A stretch of 64,000 bases of DNA from an uncultured Eubacteriales bacterium (GCA_964406575.1 CAYOSH010000022.1:2740-66739), one strand, 5' to 3'; shown: positions 32,269-52,410, numbered from the stretch's first letter. Notes: generated from the sequence alone by a model not told the origin. Numbers and translations: made by a program.

Positions 32269-32289
32269 AAGAAAAGGAAAGGAAATCTG

Positions 32290-34494: not shown

Positions 34495-34510
34495 TCGAGC
34501 CACAAAGAAA

Positions 34511-35263: not shown

Positions 35264-35279
35264 AAGGACAGGGCCACAA

Positions 35280-36257: not shown

Positions 36258-36259
36258 CA

Positions 36260-37686: not shown

Positions 37687-39624
37687 TTGAATACGGCTCG
37701 AATCAAACCCGACCCTGACCGTTCAAACCACAAGGTTAAGTTTCAGCCATTCGGAGTTCAAATTATTGTGCCCCCAGGGACATGTCTTCTTGATGCCTGC
37801 CGCAAAGCGAGAATTCCATTGAGCACCTCCTGTGGGGGAAAGGGCACCTGTGGTGACTGTATCGTCAGGATTATCAAAGGAGCAACCACAACCAAACCTT
37901 CGCTTTTCCTCCCTGAAAAACTCCGTAAACAGGGATTCGTTTTGGCCTGTCAGACCTTGATTGAAGATGATCTCACAGTCGAGCTTCCTGAGTTTCAGGA
38001 ACTTTCCCTGAAGATCCCCGGTGATATGCGATCCCTGTTGGATCAAAAAGAGGTTCTTATCGCCGATCTCGCAGTTAGCCCCCCTGTTGAGAAGCTGTCT
38101 CTGACTCTTCCCGTATCCACTCTCGATGACAACTACAGCGATTTAAAGAGACTGGAGACTAAAATTAAGAAAGAACGGCCCCTCCTCGACACTGTATATT
38201 GCGAATATTCGGTGTTGAAGAAGCTCGCCCATGCTGTTCGAGAACAACAGGGCCAAGTCGAAGTCGTCCTTTTCAGGGACGGCCCGTCATGCACCATTCT
38301 CAACGTAGAGCCCCTCTCTCCTCAAAAAAATCTCCTCGGCATTGCTTGTGATATCGGTACGACCTCGGTCACGCTTCAAGTTGTCGACCTTCTGACCGGA
38401 AAGATTTTAGGATTTGCGTCCAGCTACAACCAACAGATCCGATGCGGCGAAGACATCATCTCGCGAATCAACTATGCCCAAAAGCCTGAAAGATTACAGG
38501 AACTCCAAGAATCGATCATATCGACAATCAACAATCTCCTTGAGAAAGCCTTGAAGGCGGTTGGAGGAATAAACTCGGATATCTATTATGCCTCTCTTAC
38601 CGGAAACACTACGATGATCCATCTTTTGCTGGGGCTCGATCCACGTTACATCCGTGAAGAGCCTTATGTGCCAACACTGAACCGTGTGCCCATTTTGAGG
38701 GCGCGAGACGTTCATCTCAAAATGAACGCGGAAGCGAGAGTTCATTTTGCGCCTTCTGTGGGAAGTTATGTCGGGGGAGATATTCTGGCGGGTTTATTGT
38801 GTACGCCCATCGTGTCCCAAGTGGATAAGATTTCTGTCTTCATCGATATCGGCACAAACGGTGAATTGGTTTTGGGCAACAAAGAATGGCTCATGAGCTG
38901 TGCCTGTTCGGCAGGTCCGGCGTTCGAAGGCAGCAGCATTCGTTGTGGGATGCCTGCCGCAATAGGGGCGATCGAGAAGTTAAAAATCAAAGAAGACGGC
39001 ACAGTTGAATACAGAGTCATAGGGGGTGGAAAGCCAAAGGGAATATGCGGTTCGGGACTTATCGATCTTCTCGCTGAGCTGTTCGTTCATGGGTGTGTGG
39101 ACCGCCACGGAAAGTTCAACACAGAAAAGATCGGCGGAAGGCTCGTGGGTAAAGAAGCCGGTAAGGGATTTCTCGTGGAAAGGGGCACCCGTACCTTCTG
39201 GGGCAAAGATCTTTTGATCACCGAAAATGATATTGCCAATCTCATCCGGACCAAGGGCGCCGTTTTTTCTGCCTGTGCGTTGTTGCTCAACCATGCCGGA
39301 TTATCTTTCGACCAAATCGAATCTTTTTATATCGCAGGCGGTTTCGGGCAGAATCTGGATGTTGAAAACGCTGTCCGTATCGGCCTTTTGCCAGACCTTG
39401 AGCGAGCCAAATTCCATTATTTGGGGAACACATCTCTCCTCGGAGCCCATCTCATCCTGCTTTCCGAAAAAAACAGAGACCGGGTCAATGAACTCGAAAG
39501 AATGATGACCTATCTGGAATTGAACATAGAGCCGGGATATTTCAACGAATACACGGGCGCCCTGTTCCTTCCCCATACAAAAAAGGAGCTATTCCCATCG
39601 GTCGAACGGTTGTTCGAGCGTTGA
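37687..39624 (+). CDS. ASKHA-type reductive activator of corrinoid proteins (RACo/AcsV-like)
   Basis: N-terminal 2Fe-2S motif CGGKGTCGDC...LAC, DIGTT, YVGGDI, DIGTNGE, SAGPAFEG, GICGSG and AGGFG. Confidence 0.93.
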   Translation: MNTARIKPDPDRSNHKVKFQPFGVQIIVPPGTCLLDACRKARIPLSTSCGGKGTCGDCIVRIIKGATTTKPSLFLPEKLRKQGFVLACQTLIEDDLTVELPEFQELSLKIPGDMRSLLDQKEVLIADLAVSPPVEKLSLTLPVSTLDDNYSDLKRLETKIKKERPLLDTVYCEYSVLKKLAHAVREQQGQVEVVLFRDGPSCTILNVEPLSPQKNLLGIACDIGTTSVTLQVVDLLTGKILGFASSYNQQIRCGEDIISRINYAQKPERLQELQESIISTINNLLEKALKAVGGINSDIYYASLTGNTTMIHLLLGLDPRYIREEPYVPTLNRVPILRARDVHLKMNAEARVHFAPSVGSYVGGDILAGLLCTPIVSQVDKISVFIDIGTNGELVLGNKEWLMSCACSAGPAFEGSSIRCGMPAAIGAIEKLKIKEDGTVEYRVIGGGKPKGICGSGLIDLLAELFVHGCVDRHGKFNTEKIGGRLVGKEAGKGFLVERGTRTFWGKDLLITENDIANLIRTKGAVFSACALLLNHAGLSFDQIESFYIAGGFGQNLDVENAVRIGLLPDLERAKFHYLGNTSLLGAHLILLSEKNRDRVNELERMMTYLELNIEPGYFNEYTGALFLPHTKKELFPSVERLFER

Positions 39625-39673: not shown

Positions 39674-40561
39674 ATGGCTCAAACAATCCTCGACCGTCTC
39701 AAAAAGAGAAAAATTCTTCTTGATGGAGGATTCGGGACCGAACTTATTAAAAATGGTTTTCCTCAGGGCGCCTGTCCTGAGTCCTGGAATGATGAAAAAC
39801 CGGATGTCGTTCAGAAAATCCACAAAAGTTATTACGATGCAGGATCGGACGCCGTCCTGACCAACAGTTTTGGAGGAACGGCTATCAAGCTTCGGGCTTA
39901 CAACTTGGAAAATAAATGCTTTGATCTCAACCGTTTGGCAGCACTTATTGCAAACGAAGTGAAGCCGGAAGGAAGATTTCTTGGAGGAAGCATGGGGCCG
40001 ACAGGGAAATTCCTCAAGCCTCACGGAGAGTTCACCGAGGAGGAATTTGAAGAGGCCTATGCCGAGCAGGCGCGTGGCTTGACAGCCGGACAAGTGGACT
40101 TTCTCCTCATCGAGACACAATATGATCTGATTGAAGCCCTGTGTGCGTTCCGGGGGGCACGGAAAGCTTCGGATTTGCCGGTCTTTTTGACAATGACCTT
40201 CAATCATCATCCCAAAGGCTTTTTCACTCTGATGGGGAACAGTGTCGATCAATTTCTTGAAGCCATGGAGAGAGAAGGCGTCCCTGTTGTGGGATCCAAC
40301 TGTACTCTGAACAGTGCGGAGATGGTCGAGCTGGTGAAGATCATGCGGGAAAAAACATCGCTGCCGATAATTGCCCAAGCCAACGCGGGAAAACCTTCCC
40401 TTTCCGAAGAGGGCGAGGTCGCCTATTCTCAGGGGATGGAGGACTATCTGCGATTCATCCCTCAGATCATCGCAAACGGTGCGGACATCATTGGGGGCTG
40501 TTGCGGAACAGACCCGGACTACATCGCACGGATGTCAGAGATTGTGAAAACGTCGTCTTGA
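39674..40561 (+). CDS. Stand-alone homocysteine S-methyltransferase domain (MetH N-terminal-like)
   Basis: LDGGFGT, TNSFG, GSMGPTG, IET, and Zn ligands GSNC and GGCCGT. Confidence 0.92.
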   Translation: MAQTILDRLKKRKILLDGGFGTELIKNGFPQGACPESWNDEKPDVVQKIHKSYYDAGSDAVLTNSFGGTAIKLRAYNLENKCFDLNRLAALIANEVKPEGRFLGGSMGPTGKFLKPHGEFTEEEFEEAYAEQARGLTAGQVDFLLIETQYDLIEALCAFRGARKASDLPVFLTMTFNHHPKGFFTLMGNSVDQFLEAMEREGVPVVGSNCTLNSAEMVELVKIMREKTSLPIIAQANAGKPSLSEEGEVAYSQGMEDYLRFIPQIIANGADIIGGCCGTDPDYIARMSEIVKTSS

Positions 40562-41583: not shown

Positions 41584-42234
41584 ATGAGTAATGAAAAGTT
41601 TCTTGAAATGGTCAAAAAGGCGATCGTCGAAGGGAATAAAGACGAAGCGGAACAACTGGCACAACAGGCGATCGCAGAAAAAATGGATCTCAACGAGGTC
41701 ATCGAACAGGGATACATACTGGGGATCCAAGAAGTGGGACGTCTGTGGGAAGAGGGGGAATATTTTTTGCCCGAGTTGATCACCAGCGCGGAATGCATGA
41801 AGGCCGCTATGGAGATCATGAAGCCCGAGCTGGAAAAAGCTCATATCACCACACGATCCGAGGGAAAAGTCGTCATCGGAACTGTCGAGGGCGATATCCA
41901 CGATATCGGTAAAAACCTCGTAGCTTCGATCCTCTCAGCAAACGGATTCGATGTCATCGATCTCGGAGCGGATGTGAAGCTGGACCAGTTTATTGAAAAA
42001 GCGGACGAAGTGAACGCTGACCTGATCTGTTTATCTGCGCTCCTGACTACGACCATGACCGGACAAAAAAAGCTGATCGAGCGCCTCAAAGAAAAAGGCC
42101 TTTATGGACGATTCAAAGTCATGGTGGGCGGAGCTCCTGTCAACCAAAAATGGGCTGACGATATCGGTGCTGACGGCTATTCGGAGAATGCTCTCACAGC
42201 GGTGGGCGCAGCGAAAATGTTGGCAAAAAAATAG
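41584..42234 (+). CDS. Methyltransferase cognate corrinoid protein (MttC-like)
   Basis: YFLPEL, GDIHDIGKN, SALLTTTM and GGAP. Adjacent to an MttB homologue. Confidence 0.93.
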   Translation: MSNEKFLEMVKKAIVEGNKDEAEQLAQQAIAEKMDLNEVIEQGYILGIQEVGRLWEEGEYFLPELITSAECMKAAMEIMKPELEKAHITTRSEGKVVIGTVEGDIHDIGKNLVASILSANGFDVIDLGADVKLDQFIEKADEVNADLICLSALLTTTMTGQKKLIERLKEKGLYGRFKVMVGGAPVNQKWADDIGADGYSENALTAVGAAKMLAKK

Positions 42235-42314: not shown

Positions 42315-43787
42315 ATGATTGAACCGCGAAGACCAAAATTAGAACTTTTGAGCAATGAACTGATCCAAAAAATCATAGATGAGGCATACGATATCCTCGA
42401 AAATCAGGGTGTTTTTATCGAGAACGAAGAGGCGCTGGAGCTTCTTCGAGATGCGGGGATGAAAGTCGATACGTCCTCCCAGAGAGTAAGAATCACCCCG
42501 CAGCTCGTTGAAGATTCTCTTGCATCGACGCCAGCCTCTCTTAAGATGTATGACAGGGACGGAGAGACAGAGTATCTCATTGGGGAGGATGAAGTCCATT
42601 TTAACCCGGGCTCTGTGGCTGTCACCATACTGGACTTCGAGACACAGCAGGAGAGGAAGGCTGTCACTGACGACCTGATCCGGTTTACCCATCTGACTGA
42701 CTGCCTCGAGCATCTCCACTTCCAGAGTACCGGAATTCTGAGCAGTGATGTCTCGGAGATCATTTCGGACAGCTACCGGTTGTACATCGGCCTCTTATTT
42801 TCCAAAAAACCCATTGTCACCGGAACCTTTCGAGTGGAAGGATTTGAGCCCATGCACAGAATGCTCGTGGCCGTACGGGGAAGTGAAAAGAATCTTTCGG
42901 ATAAACCGCTGGCAATCTTCGATGCCTGCCCCTCCCCTCCTCTCAAATGGAGCAATTTGACCGCCCAAAGTTTGATCGACAGCGCCAGGGCTGGTATTCC
43001 CTCCGAATTGATTTCCATGGGGATGACAGGAGCCACTTCTCCCGTCACGATCACAGGCACGCTGGTCCAACATGTGGCTGAAAACCTGTCCGGTTTGTTG
43101 ATATGTCAGCTCGCCAAAAAGGGCGCACCAGTGATCTTCGGCGGATGTCCTTTGAGTTTCGATATGAGGAAAGGGACAACTCCTATCGGCGCAATAGAAA
43201 CTTTGATGATCGACTCCGCTTACGTTCAGATTGGAAAACATCTCGGTCTTCCGACTCACTCTTACATGGGAATGAGCGATGCTAAGATCAATGATGCACA
43301 GGGAGGATTTGAAACTGGAATAGGTATAATTCTGGCCGCACTTTCAGGAGTGAATGTGATCTCCGGCGCAGGAATACTGGATTTCATCAGGTGCCAGAGT
43401 CTGGAAAAACTGGTCATTGACAATGAGATCTGCGGGATGGCATACCGTTTGATAGAAGGGATAGCGCAACGCGATGATCCGATCGCTCTGGATCTTTTCA
43501 AAGATTTCGCAGCCGACACACAGTTCCTCTCTATGCCCCACACCAGAAAGTGGTACAGAGAGGAACACACATTTCCCAAGCTGATCGATCGGGATCCCTA
43601 TGACATCTGGGTATCCAAGGGGAAAAAATCAATTTCTTCGCGGGCCAAAGAAGAGGTGGAGAGCCTGCTGCAAAAGAATCTAGCGCCGCTTCCTGATAAA
43701 GAAATACAAAAGGCGCTCAAGGAAATCATGTTGTCCGATGCGCAAAGAAACGGCATGCCCTCGCTGCCCGAGATAGACTTTCCTTAG
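42315..43787 (+). CDS. MttB-superfamily corrinoid methyltransferase, non-pyrrolysine type
   Basis: SPVTITGTLVQ, FDMRKGT and SLEKLVIDNEI. The Pyl-equivalent position is Met (LPTHSYMG-M-SDAK). No internal TAG. Confidence 0.92.
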   Translation: MIEPRRPKLELLSNELIQKIIDEAYDILENQGVFIENEEALELLRDAGMKVDTSSQRVRITPQLVEDSLASTPASLKMYDRDGETEYLIGEDEVHFNPGSVAVTILDFETQQERKAVTDDLIRFTHLTDCLEHLHFQSTGILSSDVSEIISDSYRLYIGLLFSKKPIVTGTFRVEGFEPMHRMLVAVRGSEKNLSDKPLAIFDACPSPPLKWSNLTAQSLIDSARAGIPSELISMGMTGATSPVTITGTLVQHVAENLSGLLICQLAKKGAPVIFGGCPLSFDMRKGTTPIGAIETLMIDSAYVQIGKHLGLPTHSYMGMSDAKINDAQGGFETGIGIILAALSGVNVISGAGILDFIRCQSLEKLVIDNEICGMAYRLIEGIAQRDDPIALDLFKDFAADTQFLSMPHTRKWYREEHTFPKLIDRDPYDIWVSKGKKSISSRAKEEVESLLQKNLAPLPDKEIQKALKEIMLSDAQRNGMPSLPEIDFP

Positions 43788-43822: not shown

Positions 43823-44698
43823 ATGATGGGGACATCCCCAGTCATTAGACAAACAATGCCTTCAAAAAAATATGGCTGGACGACCAGCCAGATGCAACGA
43901 TTGAGAGAACTCAATGCGACCGAGGTCTTGCTCAGCAAACAATTTCCTGACCTTAAGACACGAAATAGAAACTTCTTCAAGATCGAACAAAATTTGGCTC
44001 GTCAGAGTCAAGAAAATCTCCAAGTCTTGCGCACAAAGCGCCGGCGTCCTCGGTTGTGCGAACTGGAAGATTTCCTTGTACAGACGCTGGTGAAACAGGG
44101 CTTCGTTCAGGTTGTCACACCGATTCTCATTGCCAAAGATTCCCTCGCAAAGATGTCGATTGAGCCAGGTCACGAGCTGTTCAAACAGGTTTTTTGGGTC
44201 GAAGAAAAAAAATGCCTGAGACCTATGCTGGCTCCCAATCTCTATTTTCTGCTGAGAGAGCTCGTGAACATATGGGAAAAACCGGTGAGGATCTTTGAAG
44301 TGGGCCCATGTTTCCGAAAGGATACAAAAGGCCGACACCATATCAATGAATTCACCATGCTCAATCTTGTGGAACTGGGCTTACCGATAGCTAAAAGAAA
44401 AGAGAGACTGGAGGAACTCGCATCGATCATTTTGCAATCAAGCGATATCGCAAAATTCAGTTTTGTCTCTCATCGGAGCGAAGTCTACGGCGAAACGATA
44501 GATGTTCTTTCCGGTTTCGAAGTCGCCTCAGGAGCGATGGGCCCTCATCCACTGGATTCGAATTGGGGAATCACGGATCCCTGGATCGGCATTGGATTCG
44601 GATTGGAAAGACTGCTTATGGTCAGGGAAAATTTCCAAAATATCCAGCGTGTTGGCCGAGCCCTGATCTACCTGGATGGAGAACGACTGAACATTTGA
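43823..44698 (+). CDS. pylSc: Pyrrolysyl-tRNA synthetase C-terminal catalytic subunit
   Basis: WTTSQMQRLRELNA, GFVQVVTP, CLRPMLAPNLY, FEVGPCFRK, EFTMLN, PWIGIGFGLERL and YLDGERLNI. The start could be the later Met (MPSKK). Confidence 0.97.
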   Translation: MMGTSPVIRQTMPSKKYGWTTSQMQRLRELNATEVLLSKQFPDLKTRNRNFFKIEQNLARQSQENLQVLRTKRRRPRLCELEDFLVQTLVKQGFVQVVTPILIAKDSLAKMSIEPGHELFKQVFWVEEKKCLRPMLAPNLYFLLRELVNIWEKPVRIFEVGPCFRKDTKGRHHINEFTMLNLVELGLPIAKRKERLEELASIILQSSDIAKFSFVSHRSEVYGETIDVLSGFEVASGAMGPHPLDSNWGITDPWIGIGFGLERLLMVRENFQNIQRVGRALIYLDGERLNI

Positions 44699-44769
44699 GA
44701 ACATTTTGCTCTCTTAATTTGAGTGATCAAGAGATGAGTTAGGATTCTATTCACACAACAGGAGATGGA

Positions 44770-45420
44770 ATGATGAGTAAAGAAGAGTTTTTTAAAGAAG
44801 CCGAGCAATCGATTTTAAACCATGACAAGGCTAAAGCCGAGGAGGTTGCACGAAAGGGCCTCGCTGAAGGTCTAGATCCGGTTGAATTCATCACAAAGGG
44901 CTTCCGTGAAGGGATCACTCAGATCGGAGATCTTTTCAGTAGAGGGGAGATTTTCCTGCCGCAACTCATCGAAGCAGCCGAGGCTATGAAGACAGCAAAT
45001 AAAATCCTTACAGAATCGATGCCAGAGTCTGCTCAAGAGAAAAGAGGTAGGTTCGTCATAGGAACAGTGCAGGGAGACATCCACGATATCGGAAAATTCT
45101 TAGTGATCTCTCTCCTTCGCGTCAACGGTTTTGAGGTTTACGACTTGGGTCATGATGTCGAAATACAAAAATTTATCGATAAGGCCCTGGAAGTCGAGGC
45201 GCATATTATCGGAACGAGCGCCCTCCTGACCACAACCATGATCGGGCAAAAAACCCTGGAAGAAAAGCTGAAAGAATCCGGACTTAAAAGCAGGTTCAAA
45301 ACGATGGTCGGCGGAGCCCCGGTCACCCAACGCTGGGCCGAAAGGATCGGAGCCGATGCTTTCGGTGAGGACGCCAACGATGCCGTAGAGAAAGCCCTCC
45401 GTCTGGTCGGTTCAAAATAG
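44770..45420 (+). CDS. Methylamine methyltransferase corrinoid protein (probably the MtbB partner, MtbC-like)
   Basis: IFLPQL, GDIHDIGK, SALLTTTM and GGAP. Located inside the pyl cluster; the partner assignment is inference. Confidence 0.9.
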   Translation: MMSKEEFFKEAEQSILNHDKAKAEEVARKGLAEGLDPVEFITKGFREGITQIGDLFSRGEIFLPQLIEAAEAMKTANKILTESMPESAQEKRGRFVIGTVQGDIHDIGKFLVISLLRVNGFEVYDLGHDVEIQKFIDKALEVEAHIIGTSALLTTTMIGQKTLEEKLKESGLKSRFKTMVGGAPVTQRWAERIGADAFGEDANDAVEKALRLVGSK

Positions 45421-45465
45421 ATCGCACTTTCTTTTTTTTTGAGTGAGATTCGCAGACATAACATT

Positions 45466-46578
45466 ATGGCAGAGAGAGATCGATACCCAAAACTCGAAGA
45501 GATCCTGGAAAAATCTCTGCAAAGAAAACCACTATCCGCATCAGAAATCACATATCTTCTTGGATTAACGGAAGGGAACAAGATATCCCGAGTTTTTCAA
45601 ACAGCCCAGTATCTAAGAGCCAAGCATTTTGGGAACAAAGTCTTTCTTTACGGATTTGTCTATTTTTCCACATACTGCCGGAATAATTGCACATTCTGTG
45701 CATCCCGGGCGTCCAATAAGCTCGCGCTACGGTATAGAAAAAGCCAATCGGAGGTCTTAGAAGCAGCTAGCCTGCTGGCGGAATCCGGTGTTCATTTGAT
45801 CGATTTGACCATGGGAGAAGACCCCTTCTACTGCAGGAGTGAAGGCGAACACGACTCTCTCCTGACACTGATTTATAAGGTGAAGACAGAAACAGGTCTA
45901 CCGCTCATGGTCTCACCAGGAGTGGTTACAAAAGATGTGCTAGCGGAGTTTGTTAGGGCAGGGGTCGATTGGTATGCCTGTTATCAGGAAACGCACAACC
46001 GACAGCTATTCGCCTATCTCCGCCCGGAACAAAATTTTGACACACGTCTCTCGGGTAAAATTTTAGCGAAACAGCTGGGAATCCTGATCGAAGAAGGAAT
46101 TTTGACAGGAGTCGGAGAATCTCTCTCTGATATCGCATTATCCATGGAGGTAATTCGGGCGTTAGGCGTTCAACAGGCCAGAGTGATGAGTTTTGTTCCC
46201 CAGATCGGGACGCCAATGTGTGATAGAAAATCGCCTTCTCGGCTAAGAGAGTTGATGACTATCGCCGTGTTACGCCTCTTGTTCCCGGACCGGTTGATCC
46301 CTGCTTCTTTAGATGTAGACGGCCTTGATCTCCTCCAAGAGCGGTTAGAAGCGGGTGCGAATGTGATCACATCCCTGATCCCTCCAAGACTTGGATTATC
46401 AGGCGTTTCTCAGCCCTCTCTCGGCATAGACGAGGGATCCCGCACGGTTCCAGGTGTGGCTCCCCTGCTCAATGAGATGGGGATGGAGGCGGCTGCGCCT
46501 CAAGATTATTCTCTATGGATTTATGCCGAAAAATCAGCCTTAGCTCGCCGTTCGGCAAATTATGAGGTGGCCGCTTGA
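45466..46578 (+). CDS. pylB: 3-methylornithine synthase (radical SAM)
   Basis: FLYGFVYFSTYCRNNCTFC, HLIDLTMGEDP, ACYQETH, RVMSFVPQ.GTP and LIPASLDVDG. First ATG at 45466; an in-frame TTG lies at 45439. Confidence 0.96.
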   Translation: MAERDRYPKLEEILEKSLQRKPLSASEITYLLGLTEGNKISRVFQTAQYLRAKHFGNKVFLYGFVYFSTYCRNNCTFCASRASNKLALRYRKSQSEVLEAASLLAESGVHLIDLTMGEDPFYCRSEGEHDSLLTLIYKVKTETGLPLMVSPGVVTKDVLAEFVRAGVDWYACYQETHNRQLFAYLRPEQNFDTRLSGKILAKQLGILIEEGILTGVGESLSDIALSMEVIRALGVQQARVMSFVPQIGTPMCDRKSPSRLRELMTIAVLRLLFPDRLIPASLDVDGLDLLQERLEAGANVITSLIPPRLGLSGVSQPSLGIDEGSRTVPGVAPLLNEMGMEAAAPQDYSLWIYAEKSALARRSANYEVAA

Positions 46579-47735
46579 GAGTGGCTGTCGTCGGTGGAAA
46601 GCTGCAGGGAGTCGAGGCAGCTTATCTTGCGCATCAGGCGGGATGGCAGGTTTTGCTCATTGACCGGGATCCGGACGTTCCCGCGAGAGGCCTTGCCCAT
46701 TCCTTCATCCAGTCGGATGTCACGCAAGACACACCGGATATCTCGGATATATTCAAGGACATGGACCTCATTATCCCGGCATTGGAAAATCAAAAGGCGC
46801 TCGAATCTTTGAAGGACCTGTCGAAAAGAAAAAGATTTCCGCTTGCTTTCGATGATGCGGCATATGCAGTTACTTCGTCCAAACAAAAATCGGACTCGCT
46901 TTTTAGAGAGTTAGGCCTTCCCGCACCTCGACCATGGCCTGACTGCGGATTTCCAGTGATTTTGAAGCCCTCAGAGTCGAGCGGAAGCCAGGGAGTTATT
47001 AAAATTTACGACAGAGAGGACCTGATTTCCTTCCGTCGGGGAAATACATTTTCTAACGATTGGATCACCCAAGAGTTTCTCGAGGGTCCCTCATACTCTC
47101 TGGAGATTGTAGGCATCGATGGAAATTATCGCTCCCTGCAATCCACGATCATCGAAGTCGACAGGAGTTTCGACTGCAAGAGAGTTATCGCCCCAGCCGA
47201 TTTGCCGGAAACTTTCGTTAACAGATTCGACGAAATCACTGTCGCCGTTGCCGAGGCCATCCACCTTACAGGAATAATGGATATAGAAGTCATTTGCCAC
47301 AATAACGAGCTAAAGATCCTGGAAATCGATGCCCGCCTGCCCAGCCAGACCCCGACAGCTGTGCTCAAATCAACCGGCATCAACATGCTGGAACTCCTGT
47401 ACGACATATTCAACAGAGGTATAATGCCCGATATCTCACTGATTATGGAGGAAAAGCCTGTCATCTATGAGCACATAAAAGTGAATCCCGATACATTAGA
47501 ATTGTCTGGTGAACATATCATGGCAGAGGCGCGACCTCTTCGCTATCAAAAGAATTTTTTTGGAGCTGACGAAGCTCTCACGGATTTTGACTCAGATCAT
47601 CCGAGTTGGGTGGCGACTTTGATTTTAACCGGGAAAACCAAAACAGAGGTCGTCCAAAAACATCACCGCGTTATGGAAACAATTCGGCAAATTTTCGGAC
47701 TGCGAGAGTGTTCGGACCCGCATCCGGGATTGTAA
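46575..47735 (+). CDS. pylC: 3-methylornithine--L-lysine ligase (ATP-grasp)
   Basis: VVGGKLQGVEAAYLA, SGSQGV, DCKRV, EIDARLPSQTP and GEHIM. TTG start overlaps the pylB TGA. Confidence 0.96.
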   Translation: MRVAVVGGKLQGVEAAYLAHQAGWQVLLIDRDPDVPARGLAHSFIQSDVTQDTPDISDIFKDMDLIIPALENQKALESLKDLSKRKRFPLAFDDAAYAVTSSKQKSDSLFRELGLPAPRPWPDCGFPVILKPSESSGSQGVIKIYDREDLISFRRGNTFSNDWITQEFLEGPSYSLEIVGIDGNYRSLQSTIIEVDRSFDCKRVIAPADLPETFVNRFDEITVAVAEAIHLTGIMDIEVICHNNELKILEIDARLPSQTPTAVLKSTGINMLELLYDIFNRGIMPDISLIMEEKPVIYEHIKVNPDTLELSGEHIMAEARPLRYQKNFFGADEALTDFDSDHPSWVATLILTGKTKTEVVQKHHRVMETIRQIFGLRECSDPHPGL

Positions 47736-47778
47736 TAAGATCTTTTGTTCTGGTAAGGACTGAAAGAACTGGTGTGAT

Positions 47779-48636
47779 ATGACGCGTTTAAGCAGTGAGT
47801 TGATCTCAGGAATGAGTGAGACTCTCGCTGCCTACGACATCGAACTCGCACAGAAGACCGGGCTTACTCTGAGACAGATCGTGGCTCGAACAGCCGGTTT
47901 ATCTGAAGAAACCCTGTGTAGTGCTTTCGGCTCTGAGAGTGCTGCCGTAATTCCGGTCACAGCAGGTCAGGGAGTTATCCAGGGATTCACTCAGGCTGTT
48001 GAAGGGATTATCGAATACTTGGGCTGCCCTTGTTTCATAACGGCAAACAGTGATGCCGCAGGACTGGCCGAAGGCATCGAAAAAGGCGCAACGATCGTCT
48101 TTTTAGCAGATGATAACCGCTTTATTGCCATTAACCTTATGCAGAAGCGCGTCGTCGACAATGCCGCGGCGACCGGATGGAGCTATGCCTATGCTTTAGA
48201 TGCCTGTGCCGGCGGTCTTAAGGATCGAGAAGTGCTTCTCATCGGCGCAGGAAGAGTAGGAGAACATGCCTTAGCGGCTCTCGAGAAACTGGAGGCAAAA
48301 GTAGGTGTTTTCGATATTAACGGTCAGAGAGTGCACGACCTTTCGTCCAAGTTCAGCATAAGCGAGGAAGAAGATCTTACAGCTTCCTTAGGAGGATACA
48401 CCCTGTTATATGATGCATCTCCAGCTTCGAATATTATCCATACAGAACACATCAAACCGGAGACGATCATCGCAGCCTGCGGCATACCGCTCGGCGTGAG
48501 TGATGAGGCTCGTTGTCTCGTCGAAGAGCGCCTCATCCATGATCCTCTCCAATTGGGAGCTGCAGCAATGCTTGCCATGGCCGTTCGCCATGGTCTGAGT
48601 GATAAAAACGGGGGGCGGATCGGACGGATCGCATAG
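47779..48636 (+). CDS. pylD: 3-methylornithyl-N6-lysine dehydrogenase (pyrrolysine synthase)
   Basis: MTRL, IPVTAGQGVIQGF, ADDNRF, GAGRVG and IHDPLQLG. The last 9 codons lie within pylT. Confidence 0.95.
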   Translation: MTRLSSELISGMSETLAAYDIELAQKTGLTLRQIVARTAGLSEETLCSAFGSESAAVIPVTAGQGVIQGFTQAVEGIIEYLGCPCFITANSDAAGLAEGIEKGATIVFLADDNRFIAINLMQKRVVDNAAATGWSYAYALDACAGGLKDREVLLIGAGRVGEHALAALEKLEAKVGVFDINGQRVHDLSSKFSISEEEDLTASLGGYTLLYDASPASNIIHTEHIKPETIIAACGIPLGVSDEARCLVEERLIHDPLQLGAAAMLAMAVRHGLSDKNGGRIGRIA

Positions 48637-48681
48637 ACCCTAAATCTATGAAGCCGGGTGCGACTCCCGGGCTCCCCGCCA
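48610..48681 (+). tRNA. pylT: tRNA-Pyl (anticodon CUA)
   Basis: 72-nt cloverleaf: acceptor GGGGGGC/GCTCCCC, single linker base, D-stem GATC/GATC with a 5-nt loop, 6-bp anticodon stem CATAGA/TCTATG, loop CCCTAAA (CTA at 48640-48642), 3-nt variable loop, T-stem CCGGG/CCCGG, discriminator G and encoded CCA. Confidence 0.97.
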
Positions 48682-48732
48682 AGAGGATATCTTTGTTTGT
48701 AAGAGTTGAAAAATTGAAGATACGAATGTAAA

Positions 48733-49071
48733 ATGGCTGAGAAAAAAATCAAAGACAAGTACATCCGCAAGCAGGTCGATTTCTTCATCCTGCTCGAAAA
48801 GATCAGACTGTGGCCCTCCCGTGGCGGTCTGCTGCACGGGATCAAGGCCTTTACGATAAAGGGAACTCTTGCTGAGATCACCACTCACTGTAATGAGACT
48901 TTTTTGATTCGGCATTCCAAAAAAAGCCGGGCCGCCCGATGGCTGCGGAATAAATGGTATTTCCAGAGCTGCAAAAAATGCAATATTCCCGAGTGGAAGA
49001 TCACGAAGTACCAGAAAACACACTTCGACCAGCATCGCGGCTCTCTATTAAGAAAAAAGACCGAACAATGA
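48733..49071 (+). CDS. pylSn: Pyrrolysyl-tRNA synthetase N-terminal subunit
   Basis: KIRLWPSRGGLLHGIK, THC, SKKSRAARWLRNKW and CKKCNIPEWK. Confidence 0.96.
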   Translation: MAEKKIKDKYIRKQVDFFILLEKIRLWPSRGGLLHGIKAFTIKGTLAEITTHCNETFLIRHSKKSRAARWLRNKWYFQSCKKCNIPEWKITKYQKTHFDQHRGSLLRKKTEQ

Positions 49072-49207
49072 CAGATTCTTGTGATAGGAGTTCGATGGGA
49101 TAAGAGAAAAGATACTTTTACAGAGAGATTCGATTTTTTTTATGAGTGTGTGCTAAAAGACACACAAAAAAATAAAAAAATCCACAAAGAAAGGAGGTGA
49201 AAAAGGA

Positions 49208-50593
49208 ATGAAGAAAATCAGAACAAGAATGGGAGATGGTTCCCTTGTGGAGCTCACCGAAGACGAATTGAAGCGAGAGTTCGAAGAAGGAACTCGAGAT
49301 GCAGCCGACAGGGGGAAAATCCCAGCCCTCACACAAAATGAGCTGGATCATCTCTTCGACATCTACAGCTCTCCATCGCGACCAGTTGGAGTTGAAATGG
49401 GAAATGAAGTCATTTTTACTTATGACTCGACATGCGGTGAAGTCCAGCGCACACTCACCCCGATCGACAGGACCCAATCGCTCCAACTGTTCGAAAGAAT
49501 GCTGGGTGCCGATACAGTAGAACTCGGTCACAACGATTACAGCTTCAAAGCGGTCAAGCCTGTCATCAGCTATGAGCGGACAGTCCTGGAGCAAGCTCTA
49601 CTAGTCACAACTGTACCTGTACTCTACGGGGCCATGCCCAATCTAGGGCTGTACTACCGGCCAGAGGGTCCGGTTCAGAACCCATCCGAGCTCATGGCTT
49701 CGGGAACAATCGACGAAGCCAGAGAGGCGCATGAAGAAGCCATCGAGTATGCGGTCAAAGATATGGTTTATGTGGCCAGCGAGCTGTATGAATCAGGCGT
49801 GGACGCCATCGACTTCGATACGACAGGTTCTGCCGGTGATCCAGACTTTCTAGCCGCTTTGCGGGCGGTGGAGATCCTGAAGGGGAAGTATCCGGACCTT
49901 TGTGTGGAGATGGGCATGTCGGGGGAATTTGTCCTAGGGATGCATGGAGGCTTGACTTACGATGATATTAGACTGGCGGGATTGTATCCTCATCAACAAG
50001 TCCAGCTTGCAGAGAAGGCGGGAGTCACGATTTTCGGACCCGTTATTAACACGAATACCAGCAAGACCTGCGCATGGAATGTCGCGCGTGTCGTAACCTT
50101 CCTTAAATTTTGTGTAGAACAATCGAACATTCCAGTGCACGCAAACATGGGAATGGGGGTCGGCGGATTACCTGTGACGCCCTATGTCCCTATTGATGCA
50201 GTCTCGAGAGCGTCCCAAGCCGTGGTTGAGATCACGCGTCTCGACGGGTTGTAGGTGGGCGTGGGAGACATTCTCGGCATGGCTGCGACTCACGCGATTG
50301 CGTCGGGCATGGGCGGGATGCGCACCGCCGGAGATCTGGTGGCGCGCATGCAAATGTCCCGGGGTATGAGACTCAAGGAAGCCAAAGAGTACGTGGCTGG
50401 CAAACTGAACCTTTCACTCATTGAACTCAGCGATCCGCTCGTGATGTCTGAGCGCAGAGAGGACCTCAAGCTGGGATTGATCAATCCCCCACCCAACTAT
50501 GTCAAGGGCATCGAGGCCAAGTTCCACATTGCAGAACTACTGGGAGTCGAGATCAACTCCCTCCGGCGGTTCAGAGAAAAAATCAAAATTTGA
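49208..50593 (+). CDS. mtbB: Dimethylamine:corrinoid methyltransferase containing pyrrolysine (461 aa, Pyl at codon 349)
   Basis: RMGDG N-terminus, DYSFK.VKP, YGAMPNLGLY, FDTTGSAGD and HANMGMGVGG. The in-frame TAG at 50252-50254 falls in RLDGL-O-VGVGD, matching the conserved DGI-O-IGVGD of MtbB. Homology continues after it (AGDLVARMQ, KGIEAK). Confidence 0.96.
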
Positions 50594-50694: not shown

Positions 50695-52410
50695 ATGCGA
50701 AAACGTTTTTTCCTCTTCGGGTGTCTTTTAGCTTGGAGTTTTCTTTTCTTATGCTGTGGTTCTGTCAAGAAAGATTTCGAAATCCTGATTGTGAAAGGGA
50801 CTATAGTTGATGGTTCGGGAAAACCGGGTTTTCAAGGAGACATTGGCATATCCGGAGATACAATTGTCGCTGTCGGTGACCTGTCGGGGAAAACGGCTCA
50901 TCGCACAATCGACGCAGAGAACCGCATAGCTTCTCCGGGATTCATCGACATGCATACGCACTGCGATGGAGGTTTGGGGGAACAAGAGTCATGTGCGAAT
51001 TTGAATTACCTGATTCAGGGAACAACAACCGTTGTAACGGGCAACTGCGGAGGTGGCACCTACAATATTGCAGAGACAAAAGCTGAATGGGAGCTCCAGG
51101 GCATAGGTACAAATGCGATTCATCTCATCGGATTTGGTGACGTCCGGCAGGCCGTTTTGGGCAATGAGCCGCGCGACCCCACTCCTCAGGAGCTTGAGGA
51201 AATGAAAGCCATCGTGCGCCGGGGGATGCAAGAGGGAGCCTGGGGAATGAGTACGGGCCTTGAGTATATCCCTGACATGTATGCGACGACAGAGGAGATT
51301 ATTGCCGTCACGCATGTTGTCTCCGAATTTGGCGGCATTTATGCGAGTCACCAGAGAAACGAAGTGGCCCGCGTACCGGACGCGACCAGAGAGAGCATCA
51401 GGATTGCCAAAGAGACAGGAGTCCGGGTCAATATCTCACATCTTAAAATCTGCGGAAAGAATAACTGGGGGATGATGGACGAAGTCATTCAAGTGATCAA
51501 TGAGGCAAGAGACAACGGGATCACAATCACAGCAGATATGTATCCTTACGATAAAGCTGCGACAGGGCCTCTTATCGCTATTGCGACTAACTCCGGCTGG
51601 TCGTGCTTCCGGCTTCCCGAAGAGATGCAGCCATTTGCGGCACTCAGAGAAAAAATGAAAAATGAAATGTTGACGGAAGAAGAAAGGGCCGATTTGAAAC
51701 GGCAATATATCGAAGAACTCGAAAAAGCGCTTTCCGATAAAGCCAAACGGGACGAGATCAGGAAATCGGTGCTCTTCGGAGTTCCTCACAATCCAAGCCC
51801 TGTTGCCGTGTCGGGTTGGGATAGCTATGCAGTCGTCGCCGCGAGGAAAAACACTCACCTGATCGATAAAATCATCTCTGACCTCGCACTCGAACAGCAG
51901 AGAGATGCTTTCGACATAGCGGCTGAATTGGTCGTGGAAGAACCTGACCTGTACCTCTCCTGTGGCGCGCTGTCTGACGAAGACATGAAAAAATTGATGA
52001 CATACGACTGGTTGATGTTTTCCAGCGATGGAGGGGCTTACCCGGTACCGGACAAAGCAGACAGCCCCAAACCGGGCCATCCTCGGAGTTTCGGCAGTCA
52101 AGCAAGGGTTCTTCGTAAGTACGTGCGAGAGGAGGAGGTTTTGCGATTGGAAGAAGCCGTCCGGAAAATGACATCTCTCCCAGCCCAATTCCTCCAGTTA
52201 AAGGACAGAGGTTTGCTCATGGAGGGATACAAAGCGGATGTGATTGTGTTCGATCCTAAAACCATCAAGGATAACGCCACGTACGCAAATCCGAAGCAGT
52301 ATAGTACTGGTACGGATTTTGTCCTGGTTAACGGTGAAATCAGTGTCGAAAGAGGAAAATACACAGGCTCTCGCAACGGTAATCTGCTGCTTCTGACAGA
52401 AAATCGATAG
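50695..52410 (+). CDS. N-acyl-D-amino-acid deacylase family amidohydrolase, exported
   Basis: PGFIDMHTH, GNCG, MSTGLEY, SHLK, SSDG, HPRSFG and AVRKMTSLPA. N-terminal signal, possibly a lipoprotein. Confidence 0.9.
   Translation: MRKRFFLFGCLLAWSFLFLCCGSVKKDFEILIVKGTIVDGSGKPGFQGDIGISGDTIVAVGDLSGKTAHRTIDAENRIASPGFIDMHTHCDGGLGEQESCANLNYLIQGTTTVVTGNCGGGTYNIAETKAEWELQGIGTNAIHLIGFGDVRQAVLGNEPRDPTPQELEEMKAIVRRGMQEGAWGMSTGLEYIPDMYATTEEIIAVTHVVSEFGGIYASHQRNEVARVPDATRESIRIAKETGVRVNISHLKICGKNNWGMMDEVIQVINEARDNGITITADMYPYDKAATGPLIAIATNSGWSCFRLPEEMQPFAALREKMKNEMLTEEERADLKRQYIEELEKALSDKAKRDEIRKSVLFGVPHNPSPVAVSGWDSYAVVAARKNTHLIDKIISDLALEQQRDAFDIAAELVVEEPDLYLSCGALSDEDMKKLMTYDWLMFSSDGGAYPVPDKADSPKPGHPRSFGSQARVLRKYVREEEVLRLEEAVRKMTSLPAQFLQLKDRGLLMEGYKADVIVFDPKTIKDNATYANPKQYSTGTDFVLVNGEISVERGKYTGSRNGNLLLLTENR

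What the first reader, a model, noticed from the sequence alone, without database searches (positions are those of the whole stretch)
43823..50593. Complete pyrrolysine system with an amber-containing dimethylamine methyltransferase in an atypical host
Seen: pylSc, pylB, pylC, pylD, a full tRNA-Pyl(CUA), pylSn and mtbB, whose TAG at 50252-50254 sits at the conserved Pyl site. The ORF track wrongly splits mtbB into two ORFs. Known: split PylSc/PylSn is the bacterial type, best studied in Firmicutes and Deltaproteobacteria, and usually discussed with trimethylamine MttB. Inference: the flanking genes point to an Aminicenantia/Acidobacteriota-like host. The only clear Pyl protein in the window is MtbB, and all three MttBs here are non-Pyl.
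Basis: partly seen in the sequence, partly recalled or inferred. Interest (0 to 1): 0.85.

Follow-up and report, generated by a model that had tools for sequence, protein, structure and literature searches.

The report
Pyrrolysine system in an Aminicenantes genome
A salt-marsh bacterium of the little-studied Aminicenantes group carries the full gene set for the 22nd amino acid, pyrrolysine, apparently to make one enzyme that takes methyl groups off dimethylamine; the system is well known, but I found no paper that reports it in this group.

Summary
The mtbB TAG (50252-50254) sits at the conserved pyrrolysine site. Every protein passes its NCBIfam cut-off.

The host inference holds. The closest loci are 'Candidatus Aminicenantes' MAGs, including closed chromosomes, and they share the gene order and flanks.

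The cassette is not a one-off. PylSc occurs in 22 of 339 genomes of the host's class and TAG-mtbB in 23 of 339 (19 genomes have both). It was found in 0 of 400 other sampled genomes of the phylum.

The class holds two unrelated cassette types. An AU test rejects a single clade, p = 0.002.

In this genome MtbB is the only recognisable Pyl protein:
- All four MttB homologues have Ala, Met or Leu at the Pyl column.
- No MtmB was found.
- TAG still ends about 22% of ORFs.

The cassette lies directly downstream of a CODH/ACS operon.

Verdict: a known system in a lineage where the papers I could search do not report it. It is a new member of a known kind, of moderate interest. Small oddities are C33 in the tRNA and a pylD stop codon that lies inside pylT.

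The parts
43823..44698 (+). pylSc, catalytic subunit of the split pyrrolysyl-tRNA synthetase
   Evidence: TIGR02367 336.8 bits, cut-off 178. Best solved relative is the Desulfitobacterium hafniense PylSc chain 2zni_A, E 2.7e-100, over residues 13-291.
   Evidence: TIGR02370 235.4 bits, cut-off 215. The MtbC equivalog NF041607 gives 210 bits, below its cut-off of 350. Pfam B12-binding and B12-binding_2. It sits between pylSc and pylB in every type-A locus.
45439..46578 (+). pylB, methylornithine synthase (radical SAM)
   Evidence: TIGR03910 459.2 bits, cut-off 348, profile 4-347 of 347.
46575..47735 (+). pylC, 3-methylornithine--L-lysine ligase
   Evidence: TIGR03909 441.5 bits, cut-off 248.
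47779..48636 (+). pylD, dehydrogenase of the last step of Pyl synthesis; its TAG stop (48634-48636) lies inside pylT
   Evidence: TIGR03911 244.9 bits, cut-off 150. Stop position relative to the tRNA gene.
48610..48681 (+). pylT, tRNA-Pyl with anticodon CUA
   Evidence: ARAGORN. Features read from those calls: 6-bp anticodon stem, 3-nt variable loop, 5-nt D loop, one base between acceptor and D stems, G73, encoded CCA, and C33 in place of U33. On 18 gap-free homologues, 99.7% of cells pair, 8 of 22 pairs change on both sides, and 0 of 500 shuffles reach this.
48733..49071 (+). pylSn, tRNA-binding small subunit of the split PylRS
   Evidence: TIGR03912 128.3 bits, cut-off 51. Aligns to the Methanosarcina PylRS N-terminal domain 5ud5_A, E 1.6e-9, with the His and three Cys columns kept.
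49208..50593 (+). mtbB, dimethylamine:corrinoid methyltransferase with one in-frame TAG
   Evidence: TIGR02368 523.3 bits, cut-off 369. PF09505 638 bits. One TAG inside the match. In the 112 codons after the TAG, synonymous changes exceed non-synonymous ones against 7 of 7 type-A homologues.
50252..50254 (+). TAG codon at the conserved pyrrolysine site of MtbB
   Evidence: Motif DGL*VGVGD. Same column in 19 of 19 homologues. 23 of 23 class matches have exactly one TAG. The Rfam PYLIS_2 match starts exactly here.
42315..43787 (+). non-Pyl MttB-superfamily methyltransferase (Met at the Pyl column); substrate unknown
   Evidence: PF06253 300.7 bits. TIGR02369 393.6 bits, below its cut-off of 525. 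No internal stop. Met at the column where Pyl-MttBs have a stop.
41584..42234 (+). second corrinoid protein, paired with the non-Pyl MttB
   Evidence: TIGR02370 246.4 bits, cut-off 215. The MtgC models stay below their cut-offs.
39674..40561 (+). homocysteine-S-methyltransferase-fold protein, candidate methylcorrinoid methyltransferase (MT2); acceptor not determined
   Evidence: PF02574 220.8 bits. NCBIfam matches to the MetH N-terminal part. Homologues sit beside Pyl clusters in L048, L049 and L025.
37687..39624 (+). AcsV/RamA-like corrinoid reductive activase
   Evidence: NF040756 654.4 bits, below its cut-off of 800. TIGR04270 (RamA) 112.9 bits, also below cut-off.
30337..37597 (+). CODH/acetyl-CoA synthase operon: CODH catalytic subunit, ACS alpha/beta, CooC-like ATPase, AcsD, AcsC
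   Evidence: TIGR01702 641.6 bits, NF040764 1064.9 bits and NF003376 408.2 bits. NF003195 499.8 bits. CbiA-family ATPase at 34511-35263.
4185..5648 (+). non-Pyl MttB-superfamily paralogue (Ala at the Pyl column)
   Evidence: TIGR02369 455.5 bits, below 525. No internal stop. Alignment column.
59017..60510 (-). non-Pyl MttB-superfamily paralogue (Leu at the Pyl column)
   Evidence: TIGR02369 392.7 bits, below 525. No internal stop. Site residue.
50695..52410 (+). amidohydrolase next to the cassette (context; role unknown)
   Evidence: Amidohydro_3 and Amidohydro_1. NF006560 202.8 bits, below cut-off. A homologue lies beside the cassette in L011 and, upstream of pylSc, in L015 and L016.

Best explanation
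This is an intact, bacterial-type pyrrolysine cassette that belongs to an Aminicenantes (class Aminicenantia) genome from salt-marsh sediment.

Proposed mechanism:
1. PylB, PylC and PylD make pyrrolysine from two lysines.
2. The split synthetase PylSc + PylSn charges it onto tRNA-Pyl(CUA).
3. The charged tRNA reads the single in-frame UAG of mtbB in competition with release factor 1. This gives full-length dimethylamine:corrinoid methyltransferase.
4. MtbB methylates the corrinoid protein encoded inside the cassette.
5. The upstream genes (corrinoid activase, a MetH-like methyltransferase, CODH/ACS) then pass that methyl group into C1 and acetyl-CoA metabolism.

Shown by computation: gene identities, tRNA structure, the conserved TAG, selection on the part after the TAG, conserved gene order, and distribution across genomes.

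Inferred only: aminoacylation, actual Pyl insertion, the substrate, the fate of the methyl group, and any regulation.

The cassette is a lineage-specific 'type A' module in the order pylSc-mtbC-pylBCD-pylT-pylSn-mtbB. It is inherited together with mtbB within the host's order. It serves, as far as can be recognised, one protein.
For: Gene identity.
- All six pyl genes and mtbB pass curated equivalog cut-offs with near full-length profile coverage.
- PylSc aligns end to end with the solved D. hafniense enzyme.
- PylSn keeps the His and Cys columns of the solved N-terminal domain.

tRNA.
- It has the tRNA-Pyl hallmarks.
- Its cloverleaf is backed by compensatory changes: 8 of 22 pairs, 0 of 500 shuffles as high, on 18 of the 36 tRNAs collected.

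The TAG is decoded.
- It is at the same column in 19 of 19 homologues and in 23 of 23 class matches.
- After the TAG, synonymous changes outnumber non-synonymous ones: 28 to 11 against L010, 31 to 20 against L016, 40 to 29 against L051. This part is therefore under protein-level selection.

The cassette belongs to this host.
- The same order and the same flanks (AcsC, MT2, SAM-methyltransferase, corrinoid, MttB upstream; amidohydrolase and a racemase downstream) occur in independent MAGs L010, L011 and L013.
- The full cassette lies on a single-contig 4.07-Mb Aminicenantes chromosome, L016 = G025.
- Tetranucleotide make-up of contig C22 correlates at 0.975 with the rest of the genome (median of 53 contigs 0.984). 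The cassette at 0.884 is within random 6.8-kb pieces, at the 14th percentile.
- Contigs from four further salt-marsh runs cover the region at 95% identity or more and list no variant at the TAG.

Co-inheritance.
- PylSc and TAG-mtbB co-occur in 19 genomes, out of 22 and 23 positives among 339.
- The PylSc and MtbB trees both give type A as one clade (93/96 and 100/100) with the same sub-groups.

Single Pyl protein.
- The four MttB homologues have no internal stop, and no MtmB was found.

Pathway context.
- CODH/ACS, an AcsV/RamA-like activase and three corrinoid proteins lie on the same strand directly upstream.
Against: - No expression or protein data: no listed sequencing run that holds the stretch is RNA.
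- The tRNA has C33. U33 is reported as an identity element for the Methanosarcina barkeri enzyme, though the D. hafniense enzyme does not contact it (PMC7609411, passages).
- TAG is a common stop here: 719 of 3275 crude ORFs, 22%. It ends mtbC, pylD and neighbouring genes. Unregulated suppression would extend many proteins.
- RF1 was not found in this assembly, only RF2. The competition step therefore rests on relatives, where 33 of 41 have RF1.
- The corrinoid protein, the activase and the MttB homologues score below their specific equivalog cut-offs. Partner assignments and the route of the methyl group are inferred from adjacency.
- The candidate MT2 has a homocysteine-methyltransferase fold. 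The acceptor could be a thiol rather than tetrahydrofolate.
- The genome is 89% complete. Other Pyl genes could be missing. Only 10 of 117 long TAG read-through candidates were tested.
Confidence: 0.8

Rival explanations
1. The cassette is foreign to the genome: a mis-binned or chimeric contig from a Desulfobacterota, Chloroflexota or Firmicutes organism in the same sample.
For: - The window comes from a 99-contig MAG with 2.6% estimated contamination.
- The same gene order occurs in a Deltaproteobacteria MAG (L022) and a Thermodesulfobacteriota MAG (L018).
- Two of the closest records are labelled 'uncultured Eubacteriales' (L010, L013).
Against: - The cassette sits 44 kb into a 68-kb contig whose composition matches the bin.
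- Identical flanks occur in three independent MAGs.
- Complete type-A cassettes are found in nine genomes from three families of the host's order. One of them is a single-contig chromosome titled Aminicenantes.
- Type A is monophyletic and separate from the Desulfobacterota rows.
- The two 'Eubacteriales' records are the same contigs as G019 and G062, which the genome tool places in the host's own family.
Confidence: 0.03
2. The cassette is a relic. The TAG in mtbB simply terminates translation, giving a truncated 348-aa product, and the pyl genes are no longer used.
For: - TAG is an ordinary, frequent stop codon in this genome.
- There is no expression evidence.
- The tRNA deviates at position 33.
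- No structured recoding signal follows the TAG: 7 non-standard pairs in the first Rfam hairpin, and a folding z-score of -1.56.
Against: - All seven genes are uninterrupted and score well above their cut-offs.
- The 112 codons after the TAG keep an excess of synonymous over non-synonymous change against all seven type-A homologues compared.
- The TAG and the cassette are kept across three families.
- Decayed loci look different. L038 has fragmented pylB and pylC matches.
Confidence: 0.07
3. The Pyl system is functional, but the methyl group does not feed acetyl-CoA synthesis. It would instead be oxidised through a reversed Wood-Ljungdahl route, or passed by the MetH-like methyltransferase to homocysteine or another thiol. 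Dimethylamine would then serve as electron donor, nitrogen source or methionine-methyl source.
For: - The candidate MT2 belongs to the homocysteine S-methyltransferase family (PF02574).
- Marine Deltaproteobacteria with Pyl-MttB and Pyl-MtbB are described with a reverse Wood-Ljungdahl pathway (PMC8318568, passages).
- No MtmB is present to use the monomethylamine that MtbB would release.
Against: - The genes from CODH/ACS to mtbB (30337-50593) lie on one strand, in one run with short gaps. This favours a shared function.
- I did not survey the methyl-branch or respiratory genes of the genome, so this rival is not tested.
Confidence: 0.3

Closest known systems
Desulfitobacterium hafniense pyl cassette (split PylSc/PylSn; PylSc-tRNA structure 2ZNI)
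   Same: - Split synthetase, pylBCD and a 72-nt tRNA-Pyl.
- PylSc aligns over residues 13-291 at E 2.7e-100.
- The tRNA keeps G8, G10:C25, A11:U24, G51:C63, A37, G73 and the 3-nt variable loop. These are named as recognition features in PMC7609411 (passages).
   Different: - The gene order differs. Here pylT lies between pylD and pylSn and overlaps pylD, and a corrinoid gene lies between pylSc and pylB. The D. hafniense order pylT-pylSc-pylBCD-pylSn is recalled, not tested.
- The tRNA has C33.
- The client enzyme is MtbB rather than an MttB-family protein.
Marine and sediment Deltaproteobacteria (Desulfobacterota) with Pyl-MttB and Pyl-MtbB (PMC8318568)
   Same: - Anoxic-sediment bacteria.
- Pyl-dependent dimethylamine methyltransferase plus Wood-Ljungdahl genes (passages).
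- L022 and L018 share the type-A gene order.
   Different: - A different phylum.
- Here there is no Pyl-MttB, and MtbB is the only recognised Pyl protein.
- PylSc is only 58-60% identical to L022 and L018 and forms its own clade.
'Type B' cassettes in another family (f15) of the same class (L042, L044, L046-L050, L053, L055)
   Same: - Same class by the genome tool.
- Complete pyl gene sets with tRNA-Pyl.
- TAG-mtbB is present.
   Different: - Canonical order pylT-pylSc-pylB-pylC-pylD-pylSn, with no embedded corrinoid gene.
- PylSc is 50-55% identical and groups with Desulfobacterales and Gemmatimonadota rows (100/95).
- The AU test rejects one clade with type A, p = 0.0023.
- L048 and L049 also carry a Pyl-MttB with the in-frame stop.
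Methanosarcina MtbB / MtbC / PYLIS_2 (Rfam RF02509)
   Same: - The same enzyme family, with the TAG at the same site.
- The Rfam model matches at 64.8 bits, starting at the TAG.
   Different: - Bacterial host and split synthetase.
- The first Rfam hairpin is not kept: 7 non-standard pairs.
- The 100 nt fold no better than 15 of 200 shuffles.
- The match therefore reflects conserved coding sequence.

Membership tests
Split bacterial pyrrolysyl-tRNA synthetase (PylSc + PylSn) | Class II catalytic subunit matching the PylS C-terminal equivalog | tested here: met
   TIGR02367 336.8 bits, cut-off 178.15. 2zni_A at E 2.7e-100.
Split bacterial pyrrolysyl-tRNA synthetase (PylSc + PylSn) | Separate gene for the N-terminal tRNA-binding domain | tested here: met
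   TIGR03912 128.3 bits, cut-off 51.15, as a 112-aa ORF 4 kb downstream of pylSc. Aligns to 5ud5_A with the His and three Cys columns kept. That these residues bind zinc is recalled.
Split bacterial pyrrolysyl-tRNA synthetase (PylSc + PylSn) | Charges tRNA-Pyl with pyrrolysine | not testable with these tools
   Needs an aminoacylation or amber-suppression assay.
tRNA-Pyl | CUA anticodon, 6-bp anticodon stem, 3-nt variable loop, short D loop, one base between acceptor and D stems, G73 | tested here: met
   ARAGORN call and drawing. Pair counts on 18 homologues: 99.7% paired, and 4 of 6 anticodon-stem pairs change on both sides.
tRNA-Pyl | U33 next to the anticodon (an identity element for the M. 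barkeri enzyme, PMC7609411) | tested here: not met
   The loop reads CCCUAAA. C33 occurs in 7 of 36 collected tRNA-Pyl genes: the window, L010, L011, L013, L015, L016 and L042. The review says the D. hafniense enzyme does not contact U33.
Pyrrolysine biosynthesis PylBCD | All three enzymes present, intact and adjacent | tested here: met
   TIGR03910 459.2 bits, TIGR03909 441.5 bits and TIGR03911 244.9 bits, all above cut-off with near-complete profile coverage.
Pyl-dependent dimethylamine methyltransferase MtbB | Full-length match to the MtbB equivalog with a single in-frame TAG at the conserved site | tested here: met
   TIGR02368 523.3 bits, cut-off 369.1. One TAG. Same column in 19 of 19 homologues.
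Pyl-dependent dimethylamine methyltransferase MtbB | Pyrrolysine actually present in the protein; activity on dimethylamine | not testable with these tools
   Indirect support only: the excess of synonymous change after the TAG.
Pyl-dependent trimethylamine methyltransferase MttB | In-frame TAG at the conserved site and a score above the TIGR02369 cut-off | tested here: not met
   The four homologues in the genome have no internal stop. The three in the window score 393.6, 392.7 and 455.5 bits, below 525. The four have Met, Leu, Ala and Ala at the Pyl column. They belong to the non-Pyl MttB superfamily.
PYLIS recoding element (Rfam RF02509) | Conserved stem-loop directly 3' of the UAG | tested here: inconclusive
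   The score of 64.8 bits exceeds the gathering score of 36. However, 7 pairs of the first hairpin are non-standard, and the folding z-score is -1.56.

The most novel reading that the evidence does not exclude
The type-A module of Aminicenantia may be a self-limiting genetic-code expansion kept for a single protein.

- Its tRNA-Pyl gene starts before pylD's stop codon in every type-A locus where both genes were seen.
- Cutting the tRNA out of the operon transcript would therefore leave the pylD message without a stop codon.
- That would couple tRNA-Pyl supply to a shut-down of pyrrolysine synthesis.
- This could help the organism tolerate a genome in which 22% of ORFs end in TAG.
- The C33 tRNA would be a co-adapted variant of this lineage's synthetase.

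Together with the fusion to a CODH/ACS operon, this would make Aminicenantes unrecognised dimethylamine consumers in salt marshes.
Probability: 0.12. Interest if true: 0.65.

Novelty: new member of a known kind. Interest (0 to 1): 0.45.

Why it matters
Pyrrolysine use in bacteria has been described for few phyla. In the passages I read, these are Firmicutes, Deltaproteobacteria, Actinobacteria and Spirochaetes (PMC9630628), plus Chloroflexi (PMC5424206).

This window adds a widespread, uncultured sediment lineage. It also shows that the trait recurs there, in about 7% of the class's species genomes, in two separately acquired forms.

It suggests that Aminicenantes compete with methylotrophic methanogens for dimethylamine in salt marshes. 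That bears on methane budgets.

It is also a warning for annotation. Standard ORF calling splits mtbB, so the pathway is invisible in routine MAG annotation.

For genetic-code-expansion work, it offers a natural PylSc/PylSn/tRNA set with a C33 tRNA.

Tried and rejected
- **Expression.** The look-up of sequencing runs listed 11 holders, none on record as RNA: no RNA holder listed. Ten are salt-marsh metagenomes. One freshwater-sediment run holds only a 0.05 share, which I did not lay.
- **Laid contigs.** Contigs of X3-X6 are short (315-1778 nt) and low depth. They list 24 variant places, none at 50252-50254, but I cannot show that each run covers that codon.
- **PYLIS as a recoding signal.** Rejected as evidence; see the membership test.
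- **Genome-wide search for further Pyl genes.**
  - 117 of 719 TAG-ending crude ORFs have an in-frame extension of 60 codons or more. This count includes mtbB itself and mtbC, which runs into pylB.
  - I tested 10 of the 117 with Pfam, read through the TAG.
  - In 9, no single domain match crosses the TAG. L056 has two UbiA stretches and only the upstream one was printed, so it was not resolved further.
  - In 1 (C25:4240-6042, - strand) an FtsX domain spans the TAG. That gene also needs a frameshift about 170 codons later, so I read it as a broken gene or an assembly error.
  - The other 105 (besides the 10 tested, mtbB and mtbC) were not tested.
- **MtbC-PylB fusion by read-through.** The two genes are in the same frame here, but not in L010 by its coordinates. 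Treated as chance.
- **RF1 loss.** Only RF2 was found in G000. RF1 passes its cut-off in 33 of 41 relatives, including the Pyl-positive genomes G003, G006, G019 and G025. I therefore read the gap as assembly incompleteness (89%).
- **L014/L045.** In this closed chromosome (G059) the cassette seems to stop after 46 residues of MtbC, but the locus holds 200 N there. It was not used as evidence of decay.
- **Promoter and terminator scans.** Counts did not exceed the shuffles: 19 against 16.0 +/- 4.4, and 12 against 18.2 +/- 4.7. No operon boundaries are claimed.
- **Not run.** Structure prediction, complex prediction, the large protein searches, the ESM Atlas and the phage/plasmid/E. coli collections. 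The family assignments were already unambiguous.
- **Supplements.** Supplementary tables of PMC9630628, PMC5424206, PMC8318568 and PMC10805028 were not seen. They could list Aminicenantes PylRS sequences and so bear on the novelty claim.
- **Sampling caveat.** The outgroup rows of both trees come from one pattern-based scan seeded with this PylSc (33 loci). The sister group and the donor of type A are unresolved; the base of the tree is a polytomy.

Full report
**What is there**

The stretch 43823-50593 holds eight features on the + strand:
- pylSc, 43823-44698
- a 216-aa corrinoid protein, 44770-45420
- pylB, 45439-46578
- pylC, 46575-47735
- pylD, 47779-48636
- tRNA-Pyl(CUA), 48610-48681
- pylSn, 48733-49071
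- mtbB, 49208-50593, with one in-frame TAG at 50252-50254

Each pyl gene and mtbB passes the curated cut-off of its NCBIfam equivalog with near-complete profile coverage. Pfam gives 638 bits for Dimeth_Pyl over 3-462 of 463 positions when the TAG is read through. It passes the 'methyltransferase cognate corrinoid protein' model (235 bits, cut-off 215). It stays below the specific MtbC cut-off (210 bits, cut-off 350).

**The tRNA**

ARAGORN finds one tRNA in the whole window, tRNA-Pyl. The drawing and sequence show:
- a 7-bp acceptor stem
- one base (G8) before a 4-bp D stem
- a 5-nt D loop
- a 6-bp anticodon stem
- the loop CCCUAAA
- a 3-nt variable loop
- a 5-bp T stem
- G73 and an encoded CCA

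I collected 36 tRNA-Pyl genes from fetched loci. On the 18 that align without gaps, the cloverleaf pairs in 99.7% of cells. Eight of 22 pairs change on both sides, and 0 of 500 shuffles reach that.

One departure stands out. Position 33 is C in the window and in L010, L011, L013, L015, L016 and L042 (7 of 36). It is U in the rest. A review (PMC7609411, passages) names U33 and A37 as identity elements for the M. barkeri enzyme. It also says the D. hafniense PylSc and PylSn do not contact them. The other features it names (G8, G10:C25, A11:U24, G51:C63, the 3-nt variable arm) are present here.

**Is the TAG decoded?**

- The same in-frame stop lies at the same column (DGL*VG) in 19 of 19 MtbB homologues from fetched loci.
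- It is TAG in all 10 checked at the DNA level.
- All 23 MtbB matches in the host's class carry exactly one TAG.
- In the 112 codons after the TAG, synonymous changes outnumber non-synonymous ones against all seven type-A homologues compared. Examples are 28 to 11, 31 to 20 and 40 to 29. This is what a translated region shows.
- The Rfam PYLIS_2 model matches at 64.8 bits, starting exactly at the TAG. Seven pairs of its first hairpin are non-standard here. The 100 nt fold no better than 15 of 200 shuffles, z = -1.56. I read the match as conserved coding sequence, not as a recoding structure.

**Whose genome is it?**

The window is G000:C22:2740-66739 in a 4.34-Mb, 99-contig assembly, 89% complete with 2.6% contamination. 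The closest PylSc loci (79-85% identity) are records titled 'Candidatus Aminicenantes bacterium'. Two are titled 'uncultured Eubacteriales'. By contig number, length and coordinates, those two are G019 and G062, which the genome tool places in the host's own family.

NCBI files Aminicenantia under Candidatus Aminicenantota. Its placement in GTDB's Acidobacteriota is recalled.

The flanks fit a diderm of this kind. They include TonB-dependent-receptor-like barrels with CarboxypepD_reg domains and a GWxTD protein. That these are typical of the group is recalled.

**Chimera test**

- Upstream genes (AcsC, MT2, SAM-methyltransferase-like, corrinoid, MttB) recur in the same order in L010, L011 and L013. 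The downstream amidohydrolase and racemase-like gene recur in L011.
- The complete cassette lies on a single-contig 4.07-Mb chromosome, L016 = G025.
- C22's tetranucleotide profile correlates at 0.975 with the other contigs. The median of 53 contigs is 0.984, and C22 ranks 17th from the bottom.
- The cassette scores 0.884, within the spread of random 6.8-kb pieces: mean 0.918, sd 0.041, 14th percentile.

**Distribution**

| Search | Result |
|---|---|
| PylSc over cut-off, 41 close genomes | 8 of 41 (5 of 8 in the own genus) |
| PylSc over cut-off, class | 22 of 339; 11 of 95 genera |
| PylSc by family, without G000 | f1 9 of 95; f2 2 of 2; f7 1 of 20; f15 9 of 72; 0 in 11 other families |
| PylSc, even sample of the phylum | 0 of 400 other genomes |
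| TAG-mtbB, class | 23 of 339 |

Nineteen genomes have both PylSc and TAG-mtbB. G006, G059 and G291 have only PylSc. G004, G005, G290 and G295 have only mtbB. Several of these seven are fragmented (G004, G005, G006, G290 and G291 have 400 or more contigs), and G059 has an N-gap at the locus. In the own genus, 7 of 8 genomes have one or both.

MtmB-family matches occur in 4 of 339 genomes, none with an internal stop and none in G000.

**Two cassette types**

Type A runs pylSc-corrinoid-pylB-pylC-pylD-pylT-pylSn-mtbB.
- It is complete in nine genomes of families f1, f2 and f7: the window, L010, L011, L013, L015, L016, L051, L052 and L054.
- Four shorter loci are consistent with it.
- The same order is seen in a Deltaproteobacteria MAG (L022) and a Thermodesulfobacteriota MAG (L018).

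Type B is found in family f15.
- It has the order pylT-pylSc-pylB-pylC-pylD-pylSn, complete in six loci and partial in three.
- Its PylSc is 50-55% identical to the window's.

In a 46-row PylSc tree:
- Type A is one clade (93/96).
- Type B is one clade (95/86), nested with Desulfobacterales and Gemmatimonadota rows (100/95).
- An AU test rejects A and B as one clade, p = 0.0023.

A 19-row MtbB tree gives the same type-A clade (100/100) with the same sub-groups. The cassette and its client gene therefore travel together. The base of the bacterial part of the tree is unresolved, so no donor can be named. The outgroup sample is only what one pattern scan returned.

**A one-protein pyrroproteome**

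The genome has four MttB-family genes. Three are in the window and one is on C38. All are uninterrupted, and the three in the window score below the Pyl-MttB cut-off. True Pyl-MttB genes of other loci, including type-B L048 and L049, have their in-frame stop at one column. At that column these four have Ala, Met, Leu and Ala.

TAG ends 719 of 3275 crude ORFs, or 22%. It ends mtbC, pylD, the upstream MttB and corrinoid genes, and the amidohydrolase.

A limited read-through screen found no convincing further Pyl gene (10 of 117 candidates tested).

RF1 was not found in this assembly, only RF2. It is present in 33 of 41 relatives, including Pyl-positive ones.

**Context and likely function**

From 27630 to 50593 the + strand carries:
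- a corrinoid protein and a CooC-like ATPase
- the CODH catalytic subunit, ACS alpha/beta, a second CooC-like ATPase, AcsD and AcsC
- an AcsV/RamA-like activase
- a homocysteine-S-methyltransferase-fold protein
- a SAM-methyltransferase-like protein
- a corrinoid protein and a non-Pyl MttB
- the cassette and mtbB

The simplest reading is a methyl-amine to corrinoid to C1/acetyl-CoA module. The acceptor of the MT2-like enzyme and the direction of the Wood-Ljungdahl reactions are not determined.

The stretch is held by salt-marsh metagenomes. The closest described analogue is the marine Deltaproteobacteria with Pyl-MttB, Pyl-MtbB and a reverse Wood-Ljungdahl pathway (PMC8318568, passages).

**Novelty**

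- Full-text searches for pyrrolysine with Aminicenantes found 5 papers. I read the matching passages of two of them; the other three I saw only as search listings (title and start of abstract). None links the two.
- Pyrrolysine with Aminicenantia found 0 papers.
- Pyrrolysine with Acidobacteria and pylS found 1 paper, unrelated.
- Pyrrolysine with Acidobacteriota found 2 papers holding the terms, listed as one work. There Acidobacteriota expressed only methanol and methoxy genes, and the Pyl genes were in Actinobacteriota.
- Aminicenantes with mtbB or dimethylamine gave no relevant paper.
- The two surveys read name five bacterial phyla in all.
- Supplements were closed.

The system is textbook. 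The host lineage is new to the literature I could search, although the sequences are public in many MAGs. I rate it a new member of a known kind, interest 0.45.

**Oddities worth a note**

In 10 of 17 loci examined, the pylD stop codon lies 6-41 nt inside the tRNA-Pyl gene. These are all nine type-A loci plus L022, and the reading frames differ. In the other seven loci it lies upstream of the gene.

If pylT is cut from the operon transcript by RNase P (established tRNA biology, not tested here), the pylD message would lose its stop codon. That is the basis of the bolder reading given in the section on the most novel reading.

Noticed in passing
window 48610-48636; also L010, L011, L013, L015, L016, L051, L052, L054, L022: The pylD ORF ends inside the tRNA-Pyl gene, with its stop 6-41 nt past the tRNA's first base. 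This holds in all nine type-A loci and in one Deltaproteobacteria MAG, in different reading frames. In the window the stop is a TAG in the anticodon stem. In the seven other loci examined the stop lies upstream of the tRNA.
   Followed up: partly
window 48638-48644 (anticodon loop): tRNA-Pyl has C33 instead of the near-universal U33. This is shared by 7 of 36 collected tRNA-Pyl genes, across two families of type A and one type-B locus.
   Followed up: partly
window 45418-45441: mtbC ends in TAG and is in frame with pylB 18 nt downstream, so amber read-through would fuse the two proteins. By their coordinates the two genes are not in the same frame in L010, so this is probably chance.
   Followed up: partly
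window 50695-52410 and 52424-53530 (- strand); L015, L016, L011: An amidohydrolase (D-aminoacylase-like subfamily match, below cut-off) sits beside the cassette in two arrangements: after mtbB in the own genus and before pylSc in family f2. An ornithine-racemase-like gene follows it here. A link to the metabolism of the D-ornithine-derived part of Pyl is conceivable but untested.
   Followed up: no
G000:C25:4240-6042 (- strand), locus L057: A MacB/FtsX-type permease has an in-frame TAG inside its FtsX domain, plus a frameshift about 170 codons later. It looks like a broken gene or an assembly error, not a Pyl gene.
   Followed up: yes
G000 whole genome; G000:C5:160647-161687: Only RF2 (prfB, 514 bits) was found. 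No RF1 passes its cut-off in this 89%-complete assembly, nor in G001 and G007 of the same genus. 33 of 41 relatives have RF1.
   Followed up: partly
window 43272-43371 (+) and 59433-59532 (-): Rfam PYLIS_3 (mttB) passes its gathering score inside two non-Pyl MttB genes, at 44.2 and 38.9 bits. The first codon of each match is ATG or CTT, not TAG. These Rfam models evidently pick up conserved coding sequence.
   Followed up: yes
L045 / L014 (G059, closed chromosome): The cassette appears cut after 46 residues of the corrinoid protein, next to a run of 200 N. This is a gap or withheld stretch, so the state of the cassette in that genome is unknown.
   Followed up: no
window 25545-27477: A DUF3786 protein and a divergently placed AraC-type regulator lie just upstream of the corrinoid/CODH/ACS/pyl gene run. 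They are possible regulators of the module.
   Followed up: no
G014, G077, G207, G006 (class relatives): MtmB-family genes without any in-frame stop (non-Pyl MtmB homologues) occur in 4 of 339 class genomes, three copies in G014.
   Followed up: no
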